A DNA stretch of 64,000 bases from Candidatus Levyibacteriota bacterium (GCA_016186625.1 JACPLG010000007.1:10426-74425), one strand, 5' to 3'. Shown: positions 7,659 through 47,342, counted from the first letter of the stretch. The notes: generated by a model from the sequence alone, not told the origin. Numbers and translations are program-made.

Positions 7659-10600
7659 ATGACAAATGAAATGCAACCCGTTCGACCCGCTTCGCAGCGA
7701 GGCGAGCAAGCTCAGGGCGAGCAAGCTCGATTGACAGGGCAAAACATTAATCCTACACTGAGAAGTGAAGGAAATATTTTCATGCCGGATGCAGCTACGG
7801 GGATAAAAGTGGAAAATCCAACTACAACAGAAGGAAAAGACACTCCCGCGGAAAAAGCCACTGATGATACGCCAAAGTTTAATGGTCAAGGAAAAGACGC
7901 CGATTCCAGGACAACACTAAAGGTTATAAGCGAAGAAAATAGTGTTCCGCAAGATGTAAGAGAAGCCGCAAGAAGAGAGTTGGAAAGAGCAAAAGAAACA
8001 CACAGGGAATCTATCAGAAAAGAGTGGCAAAAGGCAAAATCAGAAGCAAAAGAAGGAGTACTAGATGATGATTCAATTGAGGCTGCCATTGAGGCGGGGC
8101 ATGGCCCAGATACTCACACTTCTAAATTATTAACCAACTTAACTGCAAGGCAGGTAATTGAGAATGCCAATCTTGACAGAGAAAGCGAAATGACACCGCA
8201 GGAAGCAAAGGAGCTTCTGGAAAGAGACAAATTATCAGAGAAGGATCAAAATGAGATTCTTGAAGCTCACCGAGAAAGACTGGATAAAGCAGAGACATTA
8301 CTTGGCAGAAAGATTTCAGTTGGACAAAAACTGGCTATTCTGCGAGCCCATTATGTAGGTTTGGGAGAATTGGGCAAAAATGGAAAGGACGCGGGAGTTT
8401 TTAACCTTAAAAAAGATCAGATTGAAAGAAGAGTAGTAATTCTAGAGAAGGCAGGGTTTAATAAAGACCAAATACGCGTACTCATAGAATCCGGCCTAAT
8501 AGCCATGGGTGCACCACCTCCCGCCCCGGGAACTGAACAATATTATACCCAGCAGATAGAAAATGTCATAAACGACTTGGACGCACTGCTAACGCCCAGA
8601 GCTGGTCATTTTACCGATACCTTTGTTGATGACACAAGTCAGCAAATACACGAACTATATACAGTTCCACGCCAAGAGCGGGAATCTGCTCGAATATGGC
8701 TAGATCGTCATGCAAACGAGGTTTACAAATATGGATCAGAACATCCAGGGCCCGCGGCGAGAGAAGCCCGAGAATTAATGGGATTTATTCGAAGGATAGC
8801 AAGTATAGACGATATAAGGCTTGGTAGAGAAGAGCAGAACGAAAGATTTAGAATCGAATTTGATACTCTTAAAGCAGATCCAGGCGCACGGGATGCGTTA
8901 GTTGAGAAAGTAATAGAGTATGTAGCAAGTATTAATCCTTCTCACCGCGAAATACCAAGCGATATTTTAAAACGAATTATCCAAACAGAGGATGAGGGAA
9001 AATCACTTGAGCGATTAGTTATTAGAATTGTTGGTACTCCTCTTCAGTCAGAGACAGGAGAGTATAGCCTTGGGTTTTATGGCAACATCAACCTAGAATC
9101 AATAAGTAATCTTTTGCAAGCAATGTCTGAAAATCCAAATCTAGAAGGTTTACAAAATCTTCCCAGGGGAGAACAGAGACGAGTGATGGACGCTAGATAC
9201 TATCAATTGCAAGAAGTCCACACAATTAAAGAGGGAGTAAGATATATCCATGAACTTAACAAGTATACTGTTACGGATCAGTTGGAAAATGCTAGGCAAT
9301 TAGGGAATCAGATGCCCCCAGAATATCTTAATAAGTTTCAAAGGCTAAAAGGTGTGGGAACTGTTATGAGATATCTTGAGTGGGCTCTTTCAGAGGTAGT
9401 TTCAAGAGAGGGTATTCTAAACAATGAAAACTTTAATAAATTAACAGGACAGGTTAGAAACCCAGACACAGGAAAATACGAAGTTAGTCAAGAGAGTTCA
9501 GTTTTTCAATCCTTCAGAAGATACATTGACATGCTAAGAAGTGGCCGGGATATAAATGGCGCCATTCTTTCTCCCAATGACCTTACTGAACTTGCCGGTT
9601 TGGAAGATTGGGAAATAAGACTAGCCTACAATATTGGGAGAAACCTTTATAACGTTGAGCATAGAAGCGTAGAGTGGGCTGCACAAGGAAGTCCCAGACC
9701 CGGATATAGCATGTGGAAATCTCCTGTTATGGAAGGATTTGCAAGGATCTTGAATTTCGGAAAGTGGTTGAATTTAAGATTTGCACTCGGAGAAGGTAGA
9801 GGAGGAATGGTTTTATTTAAGCATGTCATAGAAGTTATGCAAAGGCTAAGGCGCAATAAAGGCTATGAGAGAAATAACCCTATGACACTTGATAAAATCA
9901 AAGGTGAAGATATTGCTATGTTTGAACTGGCAAATATGACTGCGCCAAGAGGCTTCTGGGCTTCGTGGAGAGCAATGGGTGGTCTTTTGGAACAATTTGC
10001 AGCGAAATTTCATATTCGACCAAACACGCTCATTAGCGGTTATGACGTAATACATGATAAAGATGTATTGAATCCCCAGGATACTAATTTAGCATTTATA
10101 TTAGATTTCCAAGCTTTATCACTCAAAAGAGGCAACGAAGATCCTATAAAATGGGACAAAGCTACGGATGAGATGAAAATGGACTATTTAAGAGCCGTTT
10201 TTCTAAATCCGGAAAACCCAGCCCAACTGCGCCCTGATCTTAGGATTGGACTTGGCGCAATTCTTAGAATAGCCCTGACTCCAGAAGGGGGCAAAAAACA
10301 TCGGGAACTAGATAGTCTTAGGGAGACTATTAGAACCAAGATCTGGGAAAGAGTAGCAGAAGATAATCCTCTAGCTGTTGCTCCATATCTGCACGGATTG
10401 AAATATAAAGGCGGGAGAACTGTAGATATATATAATCATAATCCAAATGTAAATTGGCTGGAATTTTCCAGAAAGCTGGCATACCTAAATGAAATAAGAC
10501 TCGCTCATATTAGAGGCTATAGAGACCCAGCTACAGGCCGGATTGTAGCGAGTATAAATTATACACTCCAAGACGCAATAAATAGCGTGAGAAATGCAAC

Positions 10601-11378
10601 CCAAGGCCGTCCCGATGCCTCCCTTTATAACTTAACTGGGGCTGAAAATGATTTACTGCAGCATATTACTTTAGAAGGAAGGACAGCTGCAGCAGATCTT
10701 GCAAATGTGGAATTCCCTTTTATCCCTTTCCTTAACGATATACTTTTTGAAAGGGCTGATTATGATGAGCCTGGAGCTCAAGCTGTGGGAAGGCATTTTA
10801 ATGACTTGGCTCAAATTCATGGTTCTAACCAAGCATCAGCCGACATGTTAGTCTTTCCTGCCCAATTTATTCAAAAGGATCCTAATGCTACAGTAGAAGC
10901 ATTTAAGAAATTTGAGCAAGGAATAACAGCAGTACACGGAGATAAAGTAGGCAAAGCTAGGTTATATCCGTTTGTTGAATCGATACTTTGGTTTCATAGG
11001 AGAGGAGAAAATGGGGGCGGTCGAGTTAGAAGGTTTATTAGGAAGCAGGATGAGATTCATACGATACTGCAGAAATTTAGAATCCCAAAGATTGGATACA
11101 ACTCAGTAGCTCAGCAAGAGCTCAAAAGTTACAAACCTGAAACCCTAGACCTTGGGCAAGTTTTTGATTACATTGATTTACTTAGCGCTGAGGGACTGAT
11201 GGGTGAAGATGAACAAGATGAAGCAAAGAAAAGGCTTGGAGGCGCAGGCCGCTTTGGATGGCTCTTTATACTTAGAATGATCTGGGAGGGAGTTCAGAGA
11301 GGTACAAAAGCAGGTGCTGTAATTGGAGGAGCAGAGCTTCTTAAAAGATCATTTAATCCTAAAGGGGCTGTTGAATAA
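7659..11378 (+). CDS. giant hypothetical protein (1239 aa), no recognisable domain
   Basis: Long uninterrupted ORF with normal codon bias. Charged, coiled-coil-like N-terminal 300 aa. No TM segment or catalytic motif recognised. Confidence 0.5.
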   Translation: MTNEMQPVRPASQRGEQAQGEQARLTGQNINPTLRSEGNIFMPDAATGIKVENPTTTEGKDTPAEKATDDTPKFNGQGKDADSRTTLKVISEENSVPQDVREAARRELERAKETHRESIRKEWQKAKSEAKEGVLDDDSIEAAIEAGHGPDTHTSKLLTNLTARQVIENANLDRESEMTPQEAKELLERDKLSEKDQNEILEAHRERLDKAETLLGRKISVGQKLAILRAHYVGLGELGKNGKDAGVFNLKKDQIERRVVILEKAGFNKDQIRVLIESGLIAMGAPPPAPGTEQYYTQQIENVINDLDALLTPRAGHFTDTFVDDTSQQIHELYTVPRQERESARIWLDRHANEVYKYGSEHPGPAAREARELMGFIRRIASIDDIRLGREEQNERFRIEFDTLKADPGARDALVEKVIEYVASINPSHREIPSDILKRIIQTEDEGKSLERLVIRIVGTPLQSETGEYSLGFYGNINLESISNLLQAMSENPNLEGLQNLPRGEQRRVMDARYYQLQEVHTIKEGVRYIHELNKYTVTDQLENARQLGNQMPPEYLNKFQRLKGVGTVMRYLEWALSEVVSREGILNNENFNKLTGQVRNPDTGKYEVSQESSVFQSFRRYIDMLRSGRDINGAILSPNDLTELAGLEDWEIRLAYNIGRNLYNVEHRSVEWAAQGSPRPGYSMWKSPVMEGFARILNFGKWLNLRFALGEGRGGMVLFKHVIEVMQRLRRNKGYERNNPMTLDKIKGEDIAMFELANMTAPRGFWASWRAMGGLLEQFAAKFHIRPNTLISGYDVIHDKDVLNPQDTNLAFILDFQALSLKRGNEDPIKWDKATDEMKMDYLRAVFLNPENPAQLRPDLRIGLGAILRIALTPEGGKKHRELDSLRETIRTKIWERVAEDNPLAVAPYLHGLKYKGGRTVDIYNHNPNVNWLEFSRKLAYLNEIRLAHIRGYRDPATGRIVASINYTLQDAINSVRNATQGRPDASLYNLTGAENDLLQHITLEGRTAAADLANVEFPFIPFLNDILFERADYDEPGAQAVGRHFNDLAQIHGSNQASADMLVFPAQFIQKDPNATVEAFKKFEQGITAVHGDKVGKARLYPFVESILWFHRRGENGGGRVRRFIRKQDEIHTILQKFRIPKIGYNSVAQQELKSYKPETLDLGQVFDYIDLLSAEGLMGEDEQDEAKKRLGGAGRFGWLFILRMIWEGVQRGTKAGAVIGGAELLKRSFNPKGAVE

Positions 11379-20037: not shown

Positions 20038-20436
20038 GGGGATGCATCGCATCGACAAGATTAGTTCTTTAAAAACTGCAAGCCGTCAACGATTAAAAAG
20101 ACGTTAACTTTGATCAAAAATTAAATGCTATAAAAGCGTTTAAAGCTAATGTTTTGGCTTTTGCCAGAACACTTAGCGCTCCATTTGCAGCACCGGCATT
20201 AGCCTTTGCTTAAATAGAGCTGTTCATTATATCTTCCTCAGGTGAGACATTTTGAGCATAAACTTAGCCTGAGAAACTGTAAGGAAGGCGGTTAGGTCCT
20301 TATTGTATTTATAACCTCGGCTCTTTTTATGGATGTTGATTTTCAAAGAAAAGAGTGATCAAAAAAATAATCAACTATGCTTGTAGAAGTTTTTAAACGC
20401 AATTCTTGCACTCGGGATCACTTCCCGACATCTCCA
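20038..20436 (+). ncRNA. ssrA: putative tmRNA (SsrA)
   Basis: 5' end ggggatgcatcgcatcgac resembles the tmRNA consensus GGGG.UG...UUCGAC. The 3' T-arm-like tcggg-atcactt-cccga is followed by catctcc pairing with the 5' end. Internal open frame ends ...AAPALAFA-taa at 20211. Adjacent to smpB. Confidence 0.55.
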
Positions 20437-20440
20437 CAAA

Positions 20441-38583: not shown

Positions 38584-39033
38584 ATGAAGTGTCCATATTG
38601 CGGATCAAAAGATACTGAAGTAGTTGAAACCAGAGACTCGGAAGATTTGGAAACCATTAGGAGGAGACGAAACTGCGTTAAATGTGAGAAAAGATTTACT
38701 ACATATGAGCGAGTCGAGAATGTTAATCTGGTTGTTATTAAAAAAGACGGAAGGAGAGAGCAATTTAATAGAGACAAGCTCAAAAATGGAATTATTAGAT
38801 CCTGCGAAAAGACCAAAGTTTCGGTTGAAGACATAGAGAAAATTGTTACAGAAGTTGAAAGAGAACTGCGAGGTGCAGACTCGGTTGAGGTAGAAAGTAA
38901 AAAGATCGGGCAGATGGTTGCGGGCAAATTAAAAAAGTTAGACAAGATAGCATACATCCGTTTTTCAAGTGTATTTAGAAGATTTGTAGATATTGAAGAT
39001 TTTGAGAAAGAAGTAAAGAAACTTATTAACTAA
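38584..39033 (+). CDS. nrdR: transcriptional repressor NrdR
   Basis: MKCPYCGSKDTEVVETR zinc ribbon plus ATP-cone. Confidence 0.9.
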   Translation: MKCPYCGSKDTEVVETRDSEDLETIRRRRNCVKCEKRFTTYERVENVNLVVIKKDGRREQFNRDKLKNGIIRSCEKTKVSVEDIEKIVTEVERELRGADSVEVESKKIGQMVAGKLKKLDKIAYIRFSSVFRRFVDIEDFEKEVKKLIN

Positions 39034-39127
39034 GTCAAAAAGCAAAATGCAAAAGTCAAAATTTAAAGTAAAAAGTAAAAAAGTTTAATAATTTTGAATT
39101 GTACTTTTGAGTTTTGATTTTTAACTT

Positions 39128-41530
39128 TTGAATTTTATGAAATTAGACGGTGTGAGACAAAAAGTATTTTTAGACAGATACTCTTTAAAAGATAAAGAGG
39201 GAAAACCTCTTGAAAAAACTCCGGATGAGATGTGGCGGCGCGTTGCCAAGGGAATTGCAGGACAGGAAAAGAAAAGTCTTCAAAAAATCTGGGAGAAGAA
39301 ATTTTATGATGCTATATCTGGGTTTAAGTTTCTTCCGGGCGGACGAATTCTTGCAGGAGCAGGGACTGGATTTGATGTAACTTATTTTAATTGTTTTGTA
39401 ATTCCTTCCCCAAAAGACTCCCGTGACGGAATTTTAGATAACCTCAAAATCATGATTGAAATTATGGCACGCGGCGGAGGAGTTGGAATTAATTTATCTT
39501 CTCTTCGTCCAAAAGGAGCAAGAGTTAAAAAAGTAAACGGATTTTCCTCAGGCCCTATGAACTGGGCTGAGCTTTATTCTTTGGCAACTAAAGATATTAT
39601 TCAGCAAGGAGGAAGCAGGCGCGGCGCTTTAATGCTTATGCTTCATGATTGGCATCCGGATATTGAGGAGTTCATTACTGTTAAAGAAGATCTAAGAAGA
39701 ATTAACGGCGCAAATCTATCCGTCTGTGTTTCCGATGATTTCATGGAGGCAGTAAAAAATGATTCGGATTGGAAACTGGAATTCCCGGATTTGGATGACC
39801 CCAAGTATGACAAAAAATGGGATGGAGACTTAAAAGCCTGGAAGGCACGTGGCGGGCGAGTTGTAGTCAAGAAGACAGTTAAGGCAAAATACCTCTGGGA
39901 TCTAATTTGCAGCGCTGCATGGAGATCTGCTGAGCCAGGACTTCACTTTTTGGACAGAAGCAACAAGCGTTCGAATACGTATTATTTTGAGCAGTTAATT
40001 GCAACCAACCCTTGCGGAGAACAGCCACTTGGGGAGTGGGCGGTTTGTAATCTTGGCGCAATTAATCTCTCAGCCTATGTACATGGAGGAGAGTTTGATT
40101 ATAAAAACTTTGGTAAAGATGTAAGAACTGCCATCCGATTTTTAGATAATGTTATTGATGATACATATTATTTTTATCCTGAAAATGAAAAAATTGCTAA
40201 GGATATCCGCCGAACAGGCCTTGGTATCTTAGGCCTTGCTGACGCTTTAATTAAAATGAAGCTAAGGTACGGCGCTGCGGAAACAGAAGAGACATTGCGA
40301 AAAATCTTTGAGACTTTGCGAGATAATGCGTATGACGCATCAGCTGACATTGCCAAAGAAAAAGGAGCTTTTCCTAAATTTAAGGCGGCAAAATATCTTA
40401 AAGGTTATCATATACAAGCCTTGCCCCAGAAAATTAAAGACAAGATTGCCAGAAATGGAATAAGAAACGCAGTACTTCTTACAATTGCGCCAACTGGAAC
40501 AACCTCTTTAATCTCAGGAGTTTCTTCTGGAGTTGAGCCTGTTTATGAGTTCGAGTTCATAAGACGCGACCGCCTTGGAGAACACAAAATGTACCATCCT
40601 TTGTTTGAAGCATGGAAAAAAAATCACCCAAATGACGTAAAACCGGATTACTTTGTCTCAGCAAATGATCTGACACCCGAAGAGCACGTTATGGTGCAAT
40701 CTATTGCTCAGGAATATATTGATTCTTCAATTTCAAAAACCGTTAACGCGCCCAATGCCCACACCCCGGAGGACGTCAAAAATCTCTATATGCTGGCTTA
40801 TGAGCACGGTCTTAAAGGCATTACATATATGAGAGAGGGAAGCAGGGAAGGAGTTTTGTCTAGGGTGAATGATAAAAAAGACCAGACTTTGGGCAGGCAG
40901 GAGTCTGCGCCGGCCACTCTTCCCAAAGAATATGTTAGAGCGCCTCGTCCAATGATGGTTGAAGGAGTTACCTACAAAACTCAAACTCCAGTTGGAGATA
41001 CCTTTATCACTCTAAATCATGATCAAGGGGGAGAACCTTTTGAAGTATTTATAACAATTGGAAAAACAGGATCAGATCTTTCTGCAATGGCTGACGCTCT
41101 GGGCAGAATGATTTCCCTAAACCTTCGTCTCGCAGGCAACCTGCCGCCGCGCGAGAGGATTAGACAGGTTATATCACAGCTCTCAGGAATCGGGGGCGCT
41201 CGAAGCGTAGGCTTCGGAGAAAATAGAGTGCGCTCCCTTCCTGATGCTGTTGCCAAGATTTTGGCAAAGCAATATGCATTTAGAGTAAATGGTGCTGTTG
41301 AAGACAAACTTGCGCCAGGTGTCCTAACACCGGTTGCCACACCGGCGGCAGATTTACCTTCGGAAAAGGAAGAAATAACAGTTTTGCAACAACTCCCTTT
41401 ACAAGAAGGGATTGTAGGTAGTAAAGCAGACACTCATTTATTTGATATTTGTCCTGAATGCGGAGCAGGAGCATTTGCATATGAAGAAGGTTGCAGGAAA
41501 TGCTATTCCTGCGGCCACTCTGAATGCTAG
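39128..41530 (+). CDS. nrdJ: ribonucleoside-diphosphate/triphosphate reductase, class II (adenosylcobalamin-dependent)
   Basis: 800 aa. Motifs PGGRILAGAG, NPCGEQPL and C-terminal CxxC...CxxC. Confidence 0.9.
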   Translation: MNFMKLDGVRQKVFLDRYSLKDKEGKPLEKTPDEMWRRVAKGIAGQEKKSLQKIWEKKFYDAISGFKFLPGGRILAGAGTGFDVTYFNCFVIPSPKDSRDGILDNLKIMIEIMARGGGVGINLSSLRPKGARVKKVNGFSSGPMNWAELYSLATKDIIQQGGSRRGALMLMLHDWHPDIEEFITVKEDLRRINGANLSVCVSDDFMEAVKNDSDWKLEFPDLDDPKYDKKWDGDLKAWKARGGRVVVKKTVKAKYLWDLICSAAWRSAEPGLHFLDRSNKRSNTYYFEQLIATNPCGEQPLGEWAVCNLGAINLSAYVHGGEFDYKNFGKDVRTAIRFLDNVIDDTYYFYPENEKIAKDIRRTGLGILGLADALIKMKLRYGAAETEETLRKIFETLRDNAYDASADIAKEKGAFPKFKAAKYLKGYHIQALPQKIKDKIARNGIRNAVLLTIAPTGTTSLISGVSSGVEPVYEFEFIRRDRLGEHKMYHPLFEAWKKNHPNDVKPDYFVSANDLTPEEHVMVQSIAQEYIDSSISKTVNAPNAHTPEDVKNLYMLAYEHGLKGITYMREGSREGVLSRVNDKKDQTLGRQESAPATLPKEYVRAPRPMMVEGVTYKTQTPVGDTFITLNHDQGGEPFEVFITIGKTGSDLSAMADALGRMISLNLRLAGNLPPRERIRQVISQLSGIGGARSVGFGENRVRSLPDAVAKILAKQYAFRVNGAVEDKLAPGVLTPVATPAADLPSEKEEITVLQQLPLQEGIVGSKADTHLFDICPECGAGAFAYEEGCRKCYSCGHSEC

Positions 41531-41599
41531 ATGCGAATGCATGCGAATTTTTACTTCGAATTAATTCGAATAGATTCGGAATAAAAATTAGTATACATT

Positions 41600-41760
41600 A
41601 GATTTCAGTAAGGTTTGGGCAAGCGAGGTTTAATACCTTCACAGTGCCGCTACCGTAAAGTCGGAAAACCACCTTACGCTATTTACCCGAGCAGGTTTTT
41701 AAACGCGCAAACTTCTCGGGATACCGAAGAACGGGGCAAACGAGGAGTTTTTTTATGGTT
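41600..41760 (+). ncRNA. probable cobalamin riboswitch
   Basis: ccgctaccgtaaagtcggaaaaccacc resembles the cgcagcgguaagg and B12-box (aagcccgaagaccugcc) segments. Downstream cccgag...ctcggg hairpin and U-run. Precedes a DUF4430 gene. Confidence 0.55.
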
Positions 41761-41826
41761 CGACAGGGACTTCGGCTGAGCTTAGTCGAATGCCCTGACC
41801 ATAAATCCTGAGCTTGTCGAAGGATT

Positions 41827-42201
41827 ATGACAAAAAGAGCAAAGATTTATTTACTTGCCGCTGTAGTTTTCATTTTAATTTTTAATGTTTTCTTTGGTTT
41901 GTTTCTAATGCAAAGAAATACAAAACCTGAGTCAGAAATCAAACCAACTGTTGCCATTCAAAATAATATTTTTTCTTATAAAGGAGAAGATGGAAAAGAC
42001 GCACTGACAATTTTGAAAGAGAAAATTAGAGTCGAGGAGTCCTCTTCCGGTTTGGTTATTTCGATAAACAATAGAAAAGCAGAAGAGGACAATAAAGAGT
42101 TTTGGGCATTCTATGTGAATGGGAAAATGGCAGAAGTGGGTCCCTCGGATTATCAAACAAAGGATGGGGATTTGATAGAATGGAAAATTCAAAAATATTA
42201 A
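41827..42201 (+). CDS. DUF4430-like secreted B12-binding candidate
   Basis: N-terminal TM or signal peptide. C-terminal FWAFYVNGKMAEVGPSDYQTKDGDLIEW. Confidence 0.55.
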   Translation: MTKRAKIYLLAAVVFILIFNVFFGLFLMQRNTKPESEIKPTVAIQNNIFSYKGEDGKDALTILKEKIRVEESSSGLVISINNRKAEEDNKEFWAFYVNGKMAEVGPSDYQTKDGDLIEWKIQKY

Positions 42202-42734
42202 GCATTGAAAAAATAATTTTGCCTGTTGCGATTGTATTGTTCGGAGTATTACTTCGGCTAGTTCCGCATCCTCCAAACTTTGCTCCAATTGCGGCAATGG
42301 CGCTTTTTGGAGGAGCATACATTAGCAAGAGATATGCCTTGATTGTTCCTTTGACTGCGTTATTTTTATCAGACATTGTTATTGGATTTCACTCCACAAT
42401 GCCCTTTGTCTATATTAGTTTTATATTGATCGGACTTGTGGGATTGTGGCTTAGGAAAAGGAGGAGTTTGAAGTGGGTTCTGGGGGCAACTCTCTTTTCT
42501 TCTTTACTTTTTTTTGTAATTACTAACTTTGGAGTTTGGACCGTTGGCGCTTTATATCCCCTGACTTTAGATGGTTTAATCCGCTGTTTTTATCTTGCTT
42601 TGCCTTTTTTCCGAAATACGGTTGTTGGAGATTTGATTTTTGTTGGGTTGTTTTTTGGAAGTTTTGAGCTCGTATTAAGGCTATCACAAAGGTTTGTCTA
42701 TGGCAGGAAAAATTTATACAAGAACAGGAGATAA
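42180..42734 (+). CDS. small polytopic membrane protein, candidate ECF-type or vitamin transporter substrate component
   Basis: About 184 aa with 5 to 6 TM helices and an HPPNFAPIAAMALFGG motif. Start set at the internal Met. Confidence 0.4.
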   Translation: MENSKILSIEKIILPVAIVLFGVLLRLVPHPPNFAPIAAMALFGGAYISKRYALIVPLTALFLSDIVIGFHSTMPFVYISFILIGLVGLWLRKRRSLKWVLGATLFSSLLFFVITNFGVWTVGALYPLTLDGLIRCFYLALPFFRNTVVGDLIFVGLFFGSFELVLRLSQRFVYGRKNLYKNRR

Positions 42735-43257
42735 AGGTAAAACCTCACTTTTTGACGGGAAAAGAGTTTTAAAATCTGATAAAAAAGTTGAGGCTTATGG
42801 AACCATAGACGAATTAAACAGTGCAATCGGCGCCGCATCGGCGTTTATAAAAGTTCGATCGATCCAAGAGGAACTTGAAGAAATACAAAACGATCTTTTG
42901 GAAATCGGCTCATCTCTTGCAGTTTCCTCAACTTTGCCCGTAGATCAATTATCCAAACGTCCCGAAGAGTTTGAAAAACTGATAGACAAACTCACCAAAG
43001 AGCTCCCGGCCTTAAATCAGTTTATTTTGCCGGGCGGGGGAAAAGGAGGCTCCCTATTACACTTGGCTCGAACAATAACCCGCCGGGCAGAGCGGCGCGT
43101 TGTTGGCTTATCCAAAAGCGAAAACATTGATCAAACAATAATAACTTACTTAAATCGCCTTTCAGACCTCCTTTTTACAATGGCGCGTTTCGTTAACCAC
43201 AAAGAAAACCGCAACGGCTCGCTCAGGGCAAGCGAAAAAATTTGGAGGAAAAAATGA
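42694..43257 (+). CDS. ATP:cob(I)alamin adenosyltransferase, PduO type
   Basis: IYTRTGDKGKTSLFDGKRVLKSD...VEAYGTIDELNS. Confidence 0.8.
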   Translation: MSMAGKIYTRTGDKGKTSLFDGKRVLKSDKKVEAYGTIDELNSAIGAASAFIKVRSIQEELEEIQNDLLEIGSSLAVSSTLPVDQLSKRPEEFEKLIDKLTKELPALNQFILPGGGKGGSLLHLARTITRRAERRVVGLSKSENIDQTIITYLNRLSDLLFTMARFVNHKENRNGSLRASEKIWRKK

Positions 43258-44435
43258 CAGAAAGAGCAGATATTCCCCAGTACAACACAGTATTTGACAG
43301 CCGGAGATTCGTAGCGCTTATGGCGGAGAGGAGAACAGTTGGGTTTGAAACATCACTTGTTAGAGAGAAAGCTTATATTGGGCAGCAATTAAAAACTGAT
43401 TTAGGAGAAAGACTAGATGTTGCAAAAAGCACATTTGTTTATGAGATAAGAGATGGAAAATTATATGAACCAGGTAGAGACGAGCCAATGGAGGAAGTGA
43501 TCAAAAGAGGGATGGGGAGAAATCCAAAAGACAGAGAAAGAGATGCAGCAGAATTGGGTTCATTTACAGGTGTTATTCAGGGATTTTTAGCAAAAGAGGA
43601 TACGCCGGATGGGACTACTGTTCTTGCAGTCTCTCCACGAGGACTGCCGGGCTCTTTTGAGAAAAAAAACTTCTTTCAGGTTTATGTTAGGGAAGGGGAA
43701 TATATAATTGGTACAAGGTATTTTTCAGATTTAACCAACGAGGATTATCGAAGAAAAATCATAAGCATAAATCCTGCTTATTCTACTCTTATACCAGAAA
43801 AACCAACAGACGTGGATCTTAAATCAAATCCTATGGTTATTCCGTGTCATCTTGATTATTCAGCAGATCCTGACAAATTGGCTATGTTTCTTTTGAAAAA
43901 AGAAATAGGAATGCCGCAGGAGCAGTTAGATGAGGTATGGGAAGTTGTAACTCCGCTGGTAACAAGTTATACAAATACTTTGATAGAAAAACCAGGAGAC
44001 CTATATTGGCTTGAAATGAATTATAGAGCATTACTTAATGGCGCGCATAAAACCAGCGAGCGAGTATTAGAACAAAAATTCAACTACGCAGAGTTAACAC
44101 TGGACGAAAGAGCTCGGACTACTTACTTCGCCTGGACTGGAACACGGATTGAGATCGAAATGCTCGCGGGTGAAGAAATAAAAATTGGTGGGGGGGCGTG
44201 CGGTTCAGGGTCCTGCTCAACGTCATCGGAATCATCATCCGGGGTTTCAGATTCACCCTTGGATAACCTTGACGGAATGGGGAAAATAAACTTTCGCTGT
44301 CCGGATTGCAATGAGCTGAACACCAGAGAGTTATTTAACTATGTAAAGAGTTGTAAAAATTGCGGAAGTGATAAAGTACTTCCTCCCAGCCTAAGAGGCA
44401 AGATTTTTCAGCTGGGCCAAATGATGAACCAATAA
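43242..44435 (+). CDS. hypothetical protein with C-terminal zinc ribbon
   Basis: CPDCNELN...CKNCGSD at the C-terminus. No other motif recognised. Confidence 0.4.
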   Translation: MEEKMTERADIPQYNTVFDSRRFVALMAERRTVGFETSLVREKAYIGQQLKTDLGERLDVAKSTFVYEIRDGKLYEPGRDEPMEEVIKRGMGRNPKDRERDAAELGSFTGVIQGFLAKEDTPDGTTVLAVSPRGLPGSFEKKNFFQVYVREGEYIIGTRYFSDLTNEDYRRKIISINPAYSTLIPEKPTDVDLKSNPMVIPCHLDYSADPDKLAMFLLKKEIGMPQEQLDEVWEVVTPLVTSYTNTLIEKPGDLYWLEMNYRALLNGAHKTSERVLEQKFNYAELTLDERARTTYFAWTGTRIEIEMLAGEEIKIGGGACGSGSCSTSSESSSGVSDSPLDNLDGMGKINFRCPDCNELNTRELFNYVKSCKNCGSDKVLPPSLRGKIFQLGQMMNQ

Positions 44436-44495: not shown

Positions 44496-44849
44496 TTGTG
44501 TATGGAAGACAAAAGAAAAGTTCCAGTTGGTGTAACACCTAGCCTGAATACAGAAGGAGCACCTGTAACAACAGGTCCAAGTCCTGATATTACAGAGTTT
44601 GTGAAACCTACCCATGGTGAGGCAGAGGTTCCTATAACTCTTCAAGGTTATATAAAACAAAATCCAGTAGCTAAATTACCTAATGCTCCGGGAATGGAGC
44701 CAGTTCCTCCAGTTTTTGAGAGTTTAGAATCAATTCGGGGGAATGTGATTCCGATTAAGCAATTAAGAGAGAAGAGTGAAGGAGATGCAGAAAGCGGAGC
44801 TGCTGATTTAGCAAGAGTTAGAAAAAGACAGCTTAATAGAGCTGCTTAG
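44496..44849 (+). CDS. hypothetical small protein
   Basis: 117-aa Pro-rich ORF. Confidence 0.35.
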   Translation: MCMEDKRKVPVGVTPSLNTEGAPVTTGPSPDITEFVKPTHGEAEVPITLQGYIKQNPVAKLPNAPGMEPVPPVFESLESIRGNVIPIKQLREKSEGDAESGAADLARVRKRQLNRAA

Positions 44850-44886
44850 GGACGGTTTTAATCTGTACGGATTCCTGTTTAACATT

Positions 44887-47211
44887 ATGCTGACCATATT
44901 AATACTTGGTCTTCTTGTTGCTGGTACAATCGCATTTGGATATTTGGCGTTTCTCAAATATAAATTTAGAAACAAGGAAAAAGAGTCGCTTGATTCAACT
45001 CTTATTCAGGTAGCACTGCCCCGCGATAATGAAATAAAAGTTGATGCTTCGGAACAGCTTTTCTCAAGCTTTGCCTCACTTCATAAGAGTGGAACAATTC
45101 CTTTTCTTATAACTCAACCAAGTATTTCTTTTGAAATAGTAGGAATGCCTGGAGACATCCGCTTTTTTGTTTCAACCCCCAATAAATATAAAGATTTTGT
45201 CGAAAAACAGATCCATGGAGCATACCCGGACGCAGAAATAAGAGAGGTTGATGAAAAAACACCCCTTAAAGAAGGGTATGTGGTGGGAAATGACTACAAT
45301 ATTTTCGCAGAAAATGCAAAAGTAGCATTTGCGCAACTCGTTCTTAAAAAATCAAATTATGAGCCCATTAAAGTTTATAAAGACCTTCCCACAGATCCTC
45401 TCTCAACAATCACTTCAGTTCTTGCCAAGATGACTGAAGGAGAAGGAGCTGCAATTCAGGTGCTAATTTCCCCGGCTGACTCAAAATGGAAAAAGTTAGG
45501 AAGAGACTTCCTGGCAAAGACCAAAAAAGAGGAAGCAAACCCTGAAACAGCAAAATACTCGGCCGATCCAAAAGAGCTTGAGGGGATTGAAAATAAGATA
45601 GGAAAGCCTGGGTTTAGCACAGTTATTAGAGTAGTTGTTTCTTCATCAACTAAAGAATCAGCGGAAGCACATCTTAACAATATTGTCAATGTTTTCAGTC
45701 AGTTTTCGGGTCTTAATTCTTTCACAAAAAGCGCAGTAAGAAGACAAAAATCTTTTATGGACGATTTTATTTATCGTTATCCTAAAAGAATAGGTACTTC
45801 GTCAATTTTAACCTCGGAAGAACTTGCAACAATCTATCATTTTCCAAATAAATCTGTTGCAACACCTCACATTTTCTGGATTACTTCAAAAAGAGCTCCA
45901 GCTGCTGCACACGTTCCGACAACAGGTTTGTACCTTGGAAAAAGTTCGTATAGAGGTTTGTCTCGAGATGTGTTTATCGAGCGAGATGATAGAAGACGCC
46001 ATATGTACATAATCGGAAAAACAGGAACTGGAAAAACAGAATTTCTAAAACAAATGATTATGCAGGATATAAAAAACGGAGAAGGAGTAGGAGTAGTAGA
46101 TCCTCATGGAGATTTAATTGAAGATGTTTTGCAGCTGATTCCGCCTGAGAGAGCAGAAGATGTTATTCTTTTTGACCCATCAGACACAGCCCGCCCCATG
46201 GGGCTAAATATGCTTGAGGCTTCAACTGAGGAGGAAAGACACTATGTTGTCTCATCAATAGTTGGCCTTATGTACAAGCTTTATGATCCTAATAAAACCG
46301 GAATAATCGGCCCCAGATTTGAACACGCAATTAGAAACGCAATGTTAACGGTTATGAGTAAGCCGGGAAGTACATTTATTGAGGTTGTCCGCGTTTTAAC
46401 TGATGCTAATTTTGTTCAGGAACTTTTGCCTTACGTCCAGGATCCTATCGTTCGCCGTTACTGGACGGACCAAATTGCTCAAACTTCAGATTTTCATAAG
46501 TCCGAGGTTTTGGACTATATAGTTTCCAAGTTTGGCCGCTTTGTTACCAATAAAACCATGAGAAACATAATAGGCCAATCCGAATCTGCGTTTAATTTCC
46601 GGGATGTTATGGATAATCAGAAAATACTTCTTGTTAATCTTTCCAAGGGAAAAATCGGAGAAGAAAATTCAGGTTTCCTGGGATTAGTTTTAGTCCCCAA
46701 GATTTTAGTAGCTGCAATGAGCAGGCAGAGTGTTTCAATGGATCAGCGTAAAGACTTTTTTCTCTATGTTGATGAATTCCAGAATTTTGCAACTCCGGAT
46801 TTTGCTCAGATTTTGTCCGAAGCCAGAAAATATCGTCTGGATTTAATAGTTGCCAATCAATTTATAGGACAAATGGAAGAGGAGGTTAAAAACGCGATTT
46901 TTGGAAATGTTGGGACACTTGCTGCATTTCGCGTAGGGGTAACTGATGCAAATTACCTCCAGCATGAGTTCCAACCAACGTTTACGGAAGCAGATCTAAT
47001 CAATATTGACCGCTTCAACGCTTATATGAGAACCGTTGTAAACGGAGAGCCAATTCCTCCATTTTCACTTGATACGACAAAGGATATGGAGCGCGAAAAA
47101 GCAATGATGAATCCAAGAGTTTCAGAGTTAATTAAGGAATTATCCAGACTCAAATACGGAAAAGATGTTGGTGTGATTGAGCAGGTAATAGCCCAGAGAG
47201 CATTACTTTAG
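44887..47211 (+). CDS. T4SS-type ATPase of the FtsK/HerA superfamily (VirB4/TraC-like, possibly VirD4-like) with N-terminal TM
   Basis: Walker A IIGKTGTGKTEF, Walker B FFLYVDEFQNF, ARKYRLDLIVANQ. Confidence 0.6.
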   Translation: MLTILILGLLVAGTIAFGYLAFLKYKFRNKEKESLDSTLIQVALPRDNEIKVDASEQLFSSFASLHKSGTIPFLITQPSISFEIVGMPGDIRFFVSTPNKYKDFVEKQIHGAYPDAEIREVDEKTPLKEGYVVGNDYNIFAENAKVAFAQLVLKKSNYEPIKVYKDLPTDPLSTITSVLAKMTEGEGAAIQVLISPADSKWKKLGRDFLAKTKKEEANPETAKYSADPKELEGIENKIGKPGFSTVIRVVVSSSTKESAEAHLNNIVNVFSQFSGLNSFTKSAVRRQKSFMDDFIYRYPKRIGTSSILTSEELATIYHFPNKSVATPHIFWITSKRAPAAAHVPTTGLYLGKSSYRGLSRDVFIERDDRRRHMYIIGKTGTGKTEFLKQMIMQDIKNGEGVGVVDPHGDLIEDVLQLIPPERAEDVILFDPSDTARPMGLNMLEASTEEERHYVVSSIVGLMYKLYDPNKTGIIGPRFEHAIRNAMLTVMSKPGSTFIEVVRVLTDANFVQELLPYVQDPIVRRYWTDQIAQTSDFHKSEVLDYIVSKFGRFVTNKTMRNIIGQSESAFNFRDVMDNQKILLVNLSKGKIGEENSGFLGLVLVPKILVAAMSRQSVSMDQRKDFFLYVDEFQNFATPDFAQILSEARKYRLDLIVANQFIGQMEEEVKNAIFGNVGTLAAFRVGVTDANYLQHEFQPTFTEADLINIDRFNAYMRTVVNGEPIPPFSLDTTKDMEREKAMMNPRVSELIKELSRLKYGKDVGVIEQVIAQRALL

Positions 47212-47270
47212 CGTTTAGCTACTAGCGTTTAGTTTTTCTTGGTGTGCTGAAAGCACTGAGCTTGTCGAAG

Positions 47271-47342
47271 TGCTCCCGCTTGGATTCGAACCAAGGACAT
47301 CTACTTTATAAGAGTAGCGCTCTACCACTGAGCTACAGGAGC
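47271..47342 (-). tRNA. tRNA-Ile(UAU)
   Basis: Cloverleaf. Acceptor gctcctg/cgggagc, anticodon stem ctact/agtag, loop cuUAUaa, T-arm cttgg-ttcgaat-ccaag. Confidence 0.8.

What the first reader, a model, noticed from the sequence alone, without database searches (positions are those of the whole stretch)
39128..43257. Cobalamin riboswitch plus DUF4430, S-component-like and PduO genes immediately downstream of the B12-dependent RNR
The only ribonucleotide reductase in the window is class II (adenosylcobalamin-dependent). Directly after it, a B12-riboswitch-like leader (B12-box-like aagtcggaaaaccacc, with a terminator-like hairpin) controls three genes: a DUF4430 secreted protein, a small polytopic membrane protein and a PduO-type adenosyltransferase. 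Together they form a compact scavenge-and-adenosylate module, consistent with dependence on host-derived corrinoids.
Basis: partly seen in the sequence, partly recalled or inferred. Interest (0 to 1): 0.55.

Follow-up and report, generated by a model that had tools for sequence, protein, structure and literature searches.

The report
B12-repressed vitamin B12 salvage operon
Right after its B12-dependent ribonucleotide reductase, this tiny-genome (CPR) bacterium has a real B12 riboswitch controlling four genes, not three, for capturing, importing and activating vitamin B12; two of the four belong to uncharacterised protein families that this context now ties to B12.

Summary
A class-II cobalamin aptamer lies at 41608-41677. 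It matches Rfam RF01689 only just (36.8 against 36.5 bits) and does not match RF00174. It is nonetheless conserved at the same position in relatives and is strongly supported by covariation. Its expression platform has a repressing design. A kissing loop (L5 UGCCG with L13 CGAGCA) competes with an antiterminator, and the terminator also hides the ribosome-binding site.

The switch controls four overlapping genes:
- A membrane-anchored DUF4430 protein, homologous to the C-terminal B12-binding domain of transcobalamin.
- A DUF6580 membrane protein with the fold of an ECF S-component.
- A PduO-type adenosyltransferase.

DUF6580 lies downstream of a cobalamin riboswitch in 27 of 30 non-CPR loci, usually after a TonB-dependent receptor. 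No searchable paper mentions the family. The 393-aa family is either fused to PduO or has its own B12 riboswitch in relatives.

In this window a 72-nt repeat insertion has split the ancestral start codon from the first gene.

Dependence on host-derived corrinoids and absence of other reductases cannot be tested from 64 kb.

The parts
38584..39033 (+). nrdR, repressor of ribonucleotide reductase genes
   Evidence: Pfam Zn_ribbon_NrdR and ATP-cone. Kept upstream of nrdJ in 15 related loci.
39137..41530 (+). nrdJ, class II (adenosylcobalamin-dependent) ribonucleotide reductase. The ORF opens at TTG 39128; relatives start at the MKLDGVR ATG.
   Evidence: TIGR02504 573.7 bits, cut-off 399.95. Pfam Ribonuc_red_lgC, lgN and TSCPD. 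No paralogue in the window.
41531..41599 (.). AT-rich spacer with short direct repeats and palindromes between nrdJ and the aptamer. Role unknown. No sigma-70-like promoter or terminator was called here.
   Evidence: Repeats; scan. A different AT-rich palindromic spacer sits at the same place in L082.
41608..41677 (+). Cobalamin riboswitch aptamer, class II (no P6 extension). P1 is 41608-41613 with 41672-41677.
   Evidence: RF01689 36.8 bits, E 2.2e-6. Model R1 76 bits. Covariation.
41645..41649 (+). L5 kissing-loop bases UGCCG
   Evidence: Nearly invariant across 25 aptamers. They co-vary with L13 in L036, L032, L021 and L082. The published L5 consensus is UCCCG (PMC10327014).
41685..41696 (+). 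P13 (ACC/GGU) with loop L13 CGAGCA (41688-41693), the kissing-loop partner of L5
   Evidence: A CGAG-containing loop closed by a co-varying short stem is found in 26 of 26 related riboswitches.
41686..41720 (+). Antiterminator / anti-sequestor hairpin. It uses the P13 and L13 bases as its 5' strand.
   Evidence: Inverted repeat I4. Folding energy -13.5 kcal/mol against -1.1 for P13 alone. The same arrangement occurs in relatives.
41711..41754 (+). Terminator that also sequesters the Shine-Dalgarno sequence: ACUUCUCG (41711-41718) pairs with CGAGGAGU (41741-41748), followed by U7 (41748-41754)
   Evidence: Folding energy -15.3 kcal/mol. The motif (G/A)AGGAG-U6-8-AUG recurs in most relatives.
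41755..41811 (+). Ancestral start codon, now opening an 18-codon uORF (MVRQGLRLSLVECPDHKS*)
   Evidence: Translation. In L001, L026, L030, L003 and L082 the AUG after the U-run is the DUF4430 start.
41758..41829 (+). 72-nt insertion: a hairpin plus a CCTGAGCTTGTCGAAGG repeat unit. It supplies a new SD (GAAGGA) and duplicates TTATG.
   Evidence: Absent from L082, L001 and L026 at the same point. A second copy of the unit lies at 47255-47271; 0.11 matches expected by chance. Hairpin energy -29 kcal/mol.
41827..42201 (+). DUF4430 protein with an N-terminal membrane anchor; predicted extracytoplasmic corrinoid binder
   Evidence: Pfam PF14478, E 1.2e-13. The family profile hits the C-terminal domain of transcobalamin-1 (E 1.1e-4), intrinsic factor (0.02) and transcobalamin-2 (0.03).
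42180..42734 (+). DUF6580 six-helix membrane protein; predicted corrinoid transporter with an S-component fold
   Evidence: Pfam PF20221, E 1e-52. AF2 pLDDT 86. Best folds are FolT, RibU and ThiT, probability 0.98. Best PDB profile hit is 6fnp_A. Linked to a riboswitch in 27 of 30 non-CPR loci.
42700..43257 (+). PduO-type ATP:cob(I)alamin adenosyltransferase
   Evidence: TIGR00636 193.5 bits, cut-off 108; Pfam Cob_adeno_trans, E 2e-58.
43254..44435 (+). 393-aa protein of an unannotated family, with a C-terminal four-Cys zinc ribbon and an invariant Cys in a Gly-rich loop. Translationally coupled to pduO (ATGA overlap). Predicted partner of PduO in corrinoid processing.
   Evidence: No Pfam or NCBIfam hit. 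453 representative clusters. Has its own B12 riboswitch in L002, L009, L021, L003, L075 and L073. Forms a riboswitch-PduO-unk unit without the transporter genes in L085, L086 and L090.

Best explanation
This is a cobalamin-repressed corrinoid salvage operon that supplies adenosylcobalamin to the adjacent class II ribonucleotide reductase.

How the switch works:
- Transcription arriving from nrdJ, or from an unrecognised promoter in the spacer, first makes a class-II cobalamin aptamer.
- With cobalamin bound, L5 (UGCCG) forms a kissing loop with L13 (CGAGCA), which is presented by a 3-bp P13.
- This holds the 5' strand of the antiterminator. The anti-SD segment (ACUUCUCG) then pairs with the SD region (CGAGGAGU) and forms a terminator followed by U7.
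- Transcription stops and the ribosome-binding site is hidden.
- Without cobalamin, the 12-bp antiterminator forms and the operon is expressed.

What the products do:
- The membrane-anchored DUF4430 protein captures corrinoid outside the cell, like the beta domain of transcobalamin.
- The DUF6580 protein, with an S-component fold, carries it across the membrane.
- PduO adenosylates it, which also traps it inside the cell.
- The coupled 393-aa zinc-ribbon protein assists PduO. Its role may be reduction, removal of the upper ligand, or hand-over of the corrinoid.

Shown:
- Element positions, homologies and predicted fold.
- Conservation and covariation of the aptamer, P13 and the kissing loop.
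- Genomic linkage of the genes.

Inferred:
- The sign of regulation and the identity of the ligand form.
- The transported substrate and the role of the fourth protein.
- Whether nrdJ and the operon share one transcript.
For: Aptamer:
- Rfam hit.
- Same position in relatives.
- 96.5% of cells paired, 10 of 14 pairs compensatory.

Kissing loop:
- CGAG loop with a co-varying P13 stem in 26 of 26 riboswitches.
- Three kinds of compensatory L5/L13 change: L036, L032, and L021 with L082.
- Published consensus and the repressing metE model (PMC10327014).

Platform:
- Mutually exclusive hairpins.
- SD-U7-AUG motif conserved.

DUF4430:
- Pfam hit; profile hits to the transcobalamin and intrinsic factor C-terminal domains; PMC4350170.

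DUF6580:
- S-component fold.
- Weak profile similarity to chain 6fnp_A.
- One family member also carries PF12822, ECF_trnsprt.
- RF00174 upstream on the same strand in 27 of 30 non-CPR loci, typically riboswitch, then TonB-dependent receptor, then DUF5074 in some, then DUF6580.
- NrdJ-riboswitch-DUF4430-DUF6580-PduO order in CPR loci.

PduO.

Fourth gene:
- Start and stop codons overlap with PduO in the window and in L081-L091.
- Own riboswitch in six loci.
- In L003 it heads an operon with CobS, a CobC-like phosphatase and CobT.
- Riboswitch-PduO-unk units occur without transporter genes.
Against: - The Rfam score is at threshold and RF00174 does not match.
- The sign of regulation is deduced from structure only. 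Activating corrinoid riboswitches do exist.
- The terminator (-15.3) is only slightly more stable than the antiterminator (-13.5), so the outcome depends on co-transcriptional kinetics.
- The 72-nt insertion separates the controlled SD and AUG from the DUF4430 start. In this genome translational control now acts on a uORF, and only termination is certain to remain.
- No binding or transport data exist for DUF6580. Its similarity to 6fnp_A is not significant (E 0.066), and Foldseek E-values are 0.3-0.8 despite the high probability.
- The fourth protein has no structural or sequence relative that suggests a chemistry. Two close lineages (L026, L030) lack it.
Confidence: 0.75

Rival explanations
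1. The riboswitch is an activating (ON) switch: cobalamin stabilises an antiterminator and turns the uptake and adenosylation genes on.
For: An activating corrinoid riboswitch is documented upstream of cobT in A. halodurans. The first hairpin after the aptamer is an antiterminator.
Against: The conserved kissing-loop bases CGAGCA are base-paired inside that antiterminator, so the kissing loop and the antiterminator exclude each other. P13 does not overlap the terminator strand, which is the feature that defines the activating design. The layout matches the repressing metE model. In L036 the 3' strand of the candidate P13 (cc[CGAGUA]gg) is followed directly by AAAUG in the leader printed. I read the GG as part of the SD, which would give simple ligand-dependent occlusion; this is my reading of the sequence, not a tool call.
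Confidence: 0.07
2. In this particular genome the switch is crippled. The 72-nt insertion uncoupled the DUF4430 start from the regulated SD and AUG, so the operon is largely constitutive or follows nrdR/nrdJ control.
For: The insertion is absent from relatives, and a new SD and AUG lie outside the regulated hairpin. L004 has a comparable insertion. L002 has no riboswitch at this site at all.
Against: The aptamer, L13, antiterminator, terminator stem and U7 are all intact, so transcription attenuation should persist. The uORF ends 15 nt before the new AUG, which allows coupling.
Confidence: 0.12
3. DUF6580 is not a corrinoid transporter. It may import another B12-related substrate (cobalt, a lower ligand, or cobinamide only) or have a non-transport role.
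For: B12 riboswitches also control cobalt and precursor transporters (established knowledge). No significant sequence match to the closest PDB chain 6fnp_A or to BtuM.
Against: It sits after a TonB-dependent receptor of the BtuB type in Gram-negative phyla, and beside a transcobalamin-like binder and an adenosyltransferase in CPR. Cobalt import is of no use without corrin synthesis genes, and none are seen in any of these loci.
Confidence: 0.12
4. The 393-aa gene is only a syntenic neighbour with no role in B12 metabolism.
For: No recognisable domain apart from a zinc ribbon. It is followed by a conserved, unrelated TrwB-like ATPase block. It is absent in L026 and L030.
Against: Six independent loci place a cobalamin riboswitch directly in front of it. 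It overlaps the pduO stop codon in at least 8 loci. It stays with PduO when the transporter genes are absent.
Confidence: 0.08

Closest known systems
Class-II cobalamin riboswitches (Rfam RF01689; env8HyCbl) and the repressing P. megaterium metE corrinoid riboswitch
   Same: Aptamer core without a P6 extension. L5-L13 kissing loop with a bulged base. P13, antiterminator and terminator compete as in the metE model (PMC10327014).
   Different: L5 is UGCCG in a very small hairpin. P13 is only 3-4 bp and is nested inside the antiterminator. The terminator's 3' strand is the SD, and the U-tract is the SD-AUG spacer, so one hairpin does both jobs. Orthologous sites in relatives carry P6-extended aptamers that score as RF00174 (L004, L021, L073). 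Ligand form is unknown.
ECF S-components for vitamins; from my recollection the nearest PDB chain, 6fnp_A, is CbrT of the Lactobacillus delbrueckii ECF-CbrT B12 transporter
   Same: Small six-helix membrane protein with the S-component fold. 6fnp_A is the best PDB profile hit. B12 context.
   Different: Similarity is not significant (E 0.066). No ECF module is seen in the window or next to any of about 90 loci. DUF6580 also occurs in Gram-negative phyla after a BtuB-type receptor.
BtuM of Thiobacillus denitrificans (solitary S-component-like B12 transporter, co-localised with btuB and btuR)
   Same: Same genomic logic: a small S-component-like protein next to the outer-membrane receptor or the adenosyltransferase, allowing metabolic trapping (PMC6072759).
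   Different: The BtuM family has an invariant cobalt-ligating cysteine and is mostly proteobacterial. DUF6580 has no invariant cysteine (its invariant residues include R26, H30, N33, D65, N116, W120) and no detectable sequence match to BtuM.
Transcobalamin / intrinsic factor / haptocorrin, C-terminal (beta) domain
   Same: The DUF4430 domain is homologous (profile E 1.1e-4 to transcobalamin-1). Some relatives (L075, L006) pair it with an alpha/alpha-toroid protein, recalling the two-domain eukaryotic carriers.
   Different: Here it is a single domain tethered by an N-terminal transmembrane helix. No alpha domain is present in this window.
PduO-type adenosyltransferase with a partner reductase (for example PduS in Salmonella; established knowledge)
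   Same: PduO needs cob(I)alamin and usually works with a reducing or chaperone partner encoded nearby. The 393-aa gene is translationally coupled to pduO.
   Different: The 393-aa protein shows no similarity to PduS, flavodoxins or any Pfam family. Any reductase role is conjecture.

Membership tests
Cobalamin riboswitch, class II (Rfam RF01689, clan CL00101) | Score at or above the curated gathering threshold | tested here: met
   36.8 bits against 36.5; E 2.2e-6 in the local search. Marginal.
Cobalamin riboswitch, class II (Rfam RF01689, clan CL00101) | Conserved core helices supported by covariation in relatives | tested here: met
   25 sequences, 96.5% paired, 10 of 14 pairs with compensatory changes. 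Exceeds all 500 shuffles and all slid controls.
Cobalamin riboswitch, class II (Rfam RF01689, clan CL00101) | L5-L13 kissing loop to the expression platform | tested here: met
   UGCCG with CG(A)GCA; motif in 26 of 26; compensatory changes in L036, L032, L021 and L082.
Cobalamin riboswitch, class II (Rfam RF01689, clan CL00101) | Binds a cobalamin form and changes gene expression | not testable with these tools
   Needs binding and reporter assays. Selectivity for AdoCbl against MeCbl or HyCbl is unknown.
Classic cobalamin riboswitch (RF00174) | Match to the RF00174 model, including the P6 extension | tested here: not met
   No RF00174 hit in the window at the gathering threshold. Weaker same-clan matches were suppressed. 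The aptamer lacks a P6 extension.
ECF transporter S-component | Six-helix S-component fold | tested here: met
   AF2 pLDDT 86. Top PDB folds FolT, RibU, ThiT and PanT, probability 0.89-0.98, TM 0.5-0.63.
ECF transporter S-component | Works with an EcfT/EcfA/EcfA' module encoded in the genome | not testable with these tools
   No ABC signature in the 64-kb window. The whole genome is not available.
B12-specific S-component (PDB chain 6fnp_A, which I recall as CbrT) | Significant sequence similarity to the solved chain | tested here: inconclusive
   Best PDB profile hit, but E 0.066 over the first half only.
BtuM | Invariant cobalt-ligating cysteine (Cys80 in BtuM of T. denitrificans) | tested here: not met
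   No invariant or near-invariant Cys in alignments A1 and A2. The defining feature is taken from PMC6072759.
DUF6580 (PF20221) | Pfam gathering score | tested here: met
   179 bits against 27.
DUF4430 / transcobalamin beta-domain | Pfam match and homology to the C-terminal domain of TC, IF and HC | tested here: met
   51.7 bits against 23.8. Profile E 1.1e-4 to 4kki residues 328-433.
DUF4430 / transcobalamin beta-domain | Binds cobalamin | not testable with these tools
   Inference from homology and riboswitch linkage only.
PduO-type ATP:cob(I)alamin adenosyltransferase | Equivalog-domain model score | tested here: met
   TIGR00636 193.5 bits against 108.45.
Class II ribonucleotide reductase (NrdJ) | NrdJ equivalog score and no adjacent class I beta subunit | tested here: met
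   TIGR02504 573.7 bits against 399.95. The neighbours are NrdR and the riboswitch.

The most novel reading that the evidence does not exclude
Two uncharacterised families would gain a function.

1. DUF6580 (more than 6,600 clusters at 90% identity) would be a new and widespread family of corrinoid transporters with an S-component fold. It would be the inner-membrane partner of BtuB-type receptors in Ignavibacteriota, Bacteroidota and other phyla, and the sole membrane step in CPR bacteria. It is distinct from BtuM and from the solved B12 S-component.

2. The unannotated 393-aa zinc-ribbon family, seen here only in CPR bacteria, would be a new cytoplasmic B12-processing partner of PduO-type adenosyltransferases, acting for example as a reductase, a dealkylase/decyanase or a hand-over chaperone.
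Probability: 0.35. Interest if true: 0.72.

Novelty: new variant of a known kind. Interest (0 to 1): 0.58.

Why it matters
B12 uptake across the cytoplasmic membrane is unexplained in many auxotrophs that lack BtuCDF. A family that sits in the B12 regulon of several phyla is a concrete candidate, and it can be tested with the E. coli complementation assay already used for BtuM.

CPR bacteria have minimal genomes, yet they keep a B12-dependent reductase for DNA precursor synthesis. The four-gene module shows what they keep to feed it. It also points to a previously unnoticed protein that travels with the adenosyltransferase.

The riboswitch is a compact natural example in which one hairpin serves as terminator, SD sequestor and SD-AUG spacer, with the kissing-loop bases embedded in the antiterminator.

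Tried and rejected
- RF00174: no hit. The aptamer is RF01689.
- My first kissing-loop guess paired the loop UUUAAUA of the 41625-41639 hairpin with UUAAAC in the next hairpin. I dropped it because it is AU-only, not conserved, and uses the wrong loop. The literature consensus pointed to UGCCG.
- An ON-switch reading was considered while the antiterminator was mistaken for P13. It was rejected once L13 was located.
- My recollection that BtuH carries DUF4430 was not supported: the BtuH paper contains no such term. I dropped it.
- DUF6580 as a single sequence against the PDB gave nothing.
- NCBIfam gave nothing for DUF4430, DUF6580 or the 393-aa protein.
- The 393-aa protein: Foldseek against the PDB gave only weak PAS-GAF-like matches (TM about 0.16). 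Pfam on 105 family representatives gave only weak zinc-ribbon hits. The PDB profile search hit only ribosomal zinc ribbons. The third homology search returned only hypothetical proteins.
With A3 it gave only 7 close loci.
- Literature searches for DUF6580, PF20221, and for CPR or Patescibacteria with cobalamin riboswitch found nothing relevant.

Full report
**What is there.** The window comes from a Candidatus Levybacteria (CPR/Patescibacteria) genome, according to the source names of identical proteins. On the + strand the order is:
- nrdR (38584-39033)
- class II reductase nrdJ (39128/39137-41530)
- a 296-nt leader
- four tightly packed genes: DUF4430 (41827-42201), DUF6580 (42180-42734), pduO (42700-43257) and an unannotated 393-aa gene (43254-44435)

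Each of the four genes overlaps the next, and the last junction is an ATGA overlap.

**The riboswitch is real.**
- Rfam places a cobalamin-clan aptamer at 41608-41677. The family is RF01689 (class II, no P6 extension), and the score is barely above threshold at 36.8 against 36.5 bits. RF00174 does not match.
- I fetched 80 loci that encode DUF6580 relatives, and later 11 more anchored on the fourth gene.
- Rfam found the same aptamer class between nrdJ and DUF4430 in L003, L026 and L030.
- A covariance model built from six aptamers then found it in 25 places in CPR loci, and also in loci that were not used to build it, such as L082, L087, L088 and L090.
- On the 25-sequence alignment, 96.5% of cells pair and 10 of 14 pairs carry compensatory changes. 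The covariation score is 0.62, against 0.145 for shuffles and at most 0.13 when partners are slid. That alignment is fitted to the model, so it leans towards the structure, but the margin is large.

**How the switch works.**
- The published L5 consensus is UCCCG, and L5 pairs with L13 of the expression platform (PMC10327014).
- Here L5 is UGCCG (41645-41649). Immediately after P1, every one of 26 related riboswitches has a short hairpin whose loop begins CGAG, usually CGAGCA. Its 2-6 bp stem co-varies (acc/ggu, ucu/aga, cuuc/gaag, cuu/aag).
- CGAGCA is complementary to UGCCG with one bulged A.
- Where L5 differs, L13 differs to match:
  - UACCG with CGAGUA in L036
  - UUCCG with CGAGAA in L032
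  - AGCCG with CGAGCU in L021 and L082
- In the window, P13 is ACC[CGAGCA]GGU (41685-41696), with a folding energy of -1.1 kcal/mol. The same bases form the 5' strand of a 12-bp hairpin with 41709-41720 (-13.5 kcal/mol).
- The 3' strand of that hairpin, ACUUCUCG, can instead pair with CGAGGAGU (41741-41748). This pairing gives -15.3 kcal/mol, is followed by U7 (41748-41754) and then by AUG (41755).
- So the kissing loop plus P13 competes with an antiterminator, and the antiterminator competes with a terminator whose 3' strand is the Shine-Dalgarno sequence.
- This is the logic shown experimentally for the repressing metE riboswitch. It is not the logic of the activating cobT riboswitch, where P13 itself overlaps the terminator.
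- I therefore infer repression by cobalamin, through transcription termination and SD occlusion together.
- The SD-U6-8-AUG arrangement recurs in most relatives. Which cobalamin form is sensed cannot be decided here.

**A local peculiarity.**
- In L001, L026, L030, L003 and L082, the AUG after the U-tract is the DUF4430 start codon.
- In the window, 72 nt (41758-41829) are inserted exactly there. They comprise a stable hairpin and a unit, CCTGAGCTTGTCGAAGG, that recurs at 47255-47271.
- The ancestral AUG now opens an 18-codon uORF that ends at 41811. DUF4430 starts at 41827 behind a new GAAGGA.
- Termination control should survive this. Direct translational control of the first gene probably does not. 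L004 has a comparable insertion.

**DUF4430.**
- The protein has an N-terminal hydrophobic helix followed by the domain.
- A profile of 13 such proteins hits the C-terminal domain of transcobalamin-1 (E 1.1e-4), intrinsic factor (0.02) and the isolated beta domain of transcobalamin-2 (0.03).
- Some relatives add alpha/alpha-toroid proteins under the same riboswitch (L075, L006). This recalls the two-domain eukaryotic carriers.

**DUF6580.**
- The family is large: 6,632 clusters passed E 1e-3. I found no paper that mentions it.
- The AF2 model (pLDDT 86) has six helices. Its best PDB folds are ECF S-components, probability up to 0.98 and TM 0.5-0.63.
- The best PDB profile hit is chain 6fnp_A, E 0.066. 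The tool labels it only 'Membrane protein'. I recall 6FNP as the ECF-CbrT B12 transporter, but I did not verify that here.
- DUF6580 is not a BtuM. That family is defined by an invariant cobalt-binding cysteine (PMC6072759), and DUF6580 has none.
- The strongest evidence is genomic context:
  - In CPR loci it lies between DUF4430 and PduO after nrdJ.
  - In 27 of 30 loci from Ignavibacteriota, Bacteroidota and other phyla, an RF00174 riboswitch lies upstream on the same strand. The usual order is riboswitch, TonB-dependent receptor, then DUF5074 in some loci, then DUF6580.
- This is the same reasoning that originally identified BtuM. Adjacency to an adenosyltransferase also fits metabolic trapping.
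- Whether DUF6580 needs an ECF module is unknown. No ABC signature occurs in the window.

**The fourth gene.**
- It has no Pfam or NCBIfam match. All relatives returned with a name are called hypothetical proteins, from Levybacteria or Patescibacteria.
- An exhaustive profile search finds 453 representative clusters. Among 105 of them, Pfam sees only weak zinc-ribbon hits.
- The family keeps the following features:
  - a GER motif
  - an SPxG motif
  - an invariant Cys in a Gly-rich loop (C316)
  - a C-terminal four-Cys ribbon
- The AF2 model (pLDDT 81) has no convincing structural neighbour in the PDB.
- Its link to B12 is genomic but consistent:
  - A cobalamin riboswitch lies directly upstream of it in L002, L009, L021, L003, L075 and L073. 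Several of these loci therefore carry two riboswitches.
  - It overlaps the pduO stop codon in the window, L081, L082, L085-L088, L090 and L091.
  - In L085, L086 and L090 the riboswitch controls only pduO plus this gene.
  - In L003 it heads a riboswitch-controlled operon with CobS, a CobC-like phosphatase and CobT.
- I read it as a cytoplasmic partner of PduO in corrinoid processing. The chemistry is conjecture.

**What cannot be said.**
- The 64 kb contain no second reductase-like gene and no other B12 gene. Neither the absence of B12 synthesis, nor of class I or III reductases, nor of an ECF module in the whole genome can be judged.
- 'Host-derived' corrinoid is plausible for a CPR bacterium but is untested.
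- No promoter or terminator was called between nrdJ and the aptamer. In L002 the uptake genes follow nrdJ after only 55 nt, with no riboswitch between them. The switch may therefore act as an internal attenuator of an nrdR-nrdJ transcript. That is an inference.

**Verdict.** The finding is correct in substance and ordinary in concept: a B12 riboswitch on B12 salvage genes. It carries two leads of real value, a probable new family of corrinoid transporters (DUF6580) and an unannotated PduO-linked family, together with a cleanly resolved riboswitch mechanism.

Noticed in passing
window 41758-41829 and 47255-47271: A short repeat unit (CCTGAGCTTGTCGAAGG / ACTGAGCTTGTCGAAGT) occurs twice. The first copy is part of a 72-nt hairpin-forming insertion flanked by duplicated TTATG, so it looks like a miniature mobile or REP-like element. 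The second copy abuts a tRNA gene (47271-47342, minus strand).
   Followed up: partly
window 41531-41599; L082 5377-5456: The spacer between the nrdJ stop codon and the aptamer is filled with AT-rich direct repeats and palindromes (ATGCGAAT twice, TTCGAATT/AATTCGAA). L082 has different palindromes (TAGATACTAGT) at the same place. This could be an operator, a promoter or a weak terminator.
   Followed up: no
window 39034-39127: The nrdR-nrdJ spacer carries repeated AAAAGTCAAAA and TTTTGAGTTTTGA-type words in inverted orientation. These are candidate NrdR boxes.
   Followed up: no
window 44496-47211: A small Pro-rich ORF (117 aa) and a 774-aa DUF8128/TrwB-like coupling-protein ATPase follow the B12 module. 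The same pair follows it in most CPR relatives, whether or not the 393-aa gene is present.
   Followed up: partly
L009, L021, L003, L075: These loci carry two cobalamin riboswitches about 1.7-3.7 kb apart. One precedes DUF4430-DUF6580-PduO and the other precedes the 393-aa family gene.
   Followed up: yes
L004 5972-6093; L021 8079-8189; L073 7546-7675; L001 6484-6591: At positions orthologous to class-II aptamers, some relatives have aptamers with an extra hairpin. L004, L021 and L073 have a P6-type extension, and L021 and L073 score as RF00174. L001 has an insertion in the first hairpin loop. This suggests easy switching between riboswitch subclasses, and perhaps between ligand preferences.
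   Followed up: partly
L075 4309-5931; L006 2046-3437 (minus strand): Riboswitch-controlled proteins that combine or pair an alpha/alpha-toroid (prenyltransferase-like) domain with DUF4430. This recalls the alpha plus beta domain architecture of transcobalamin.
   Followed up: partly
L003 8583-9429: CobT (DBI_PRT) is split into two ORFs, so it is either frameshifted or mis-assembled. It lies in a riboswitch-controlled operon of unk432, CobS, a CobC-like phosphatase and CobT in a CPR genome.
   Followed up: partly
L001, L002, L012, L021, L036 record titles: MAG records titled 'uncultured Gammaproteobacteria' carry the typical CPR gene order. The nrdR and nrdJ products of L001, L002 and L021, and nrdJ alone in L012, are 59-87% identical to those of the Levybacteria window. 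The taxonomic labels are probably wrong.
   Followed up: no
window 20038-20439: tmRNA gene (RF00023, 96 bits). Seven tRNA genes occur elsewhere in the window.
   Followed up: no
window 7659-11378: A 1239-aa ORF with no Pfam match.
   Followed up: no
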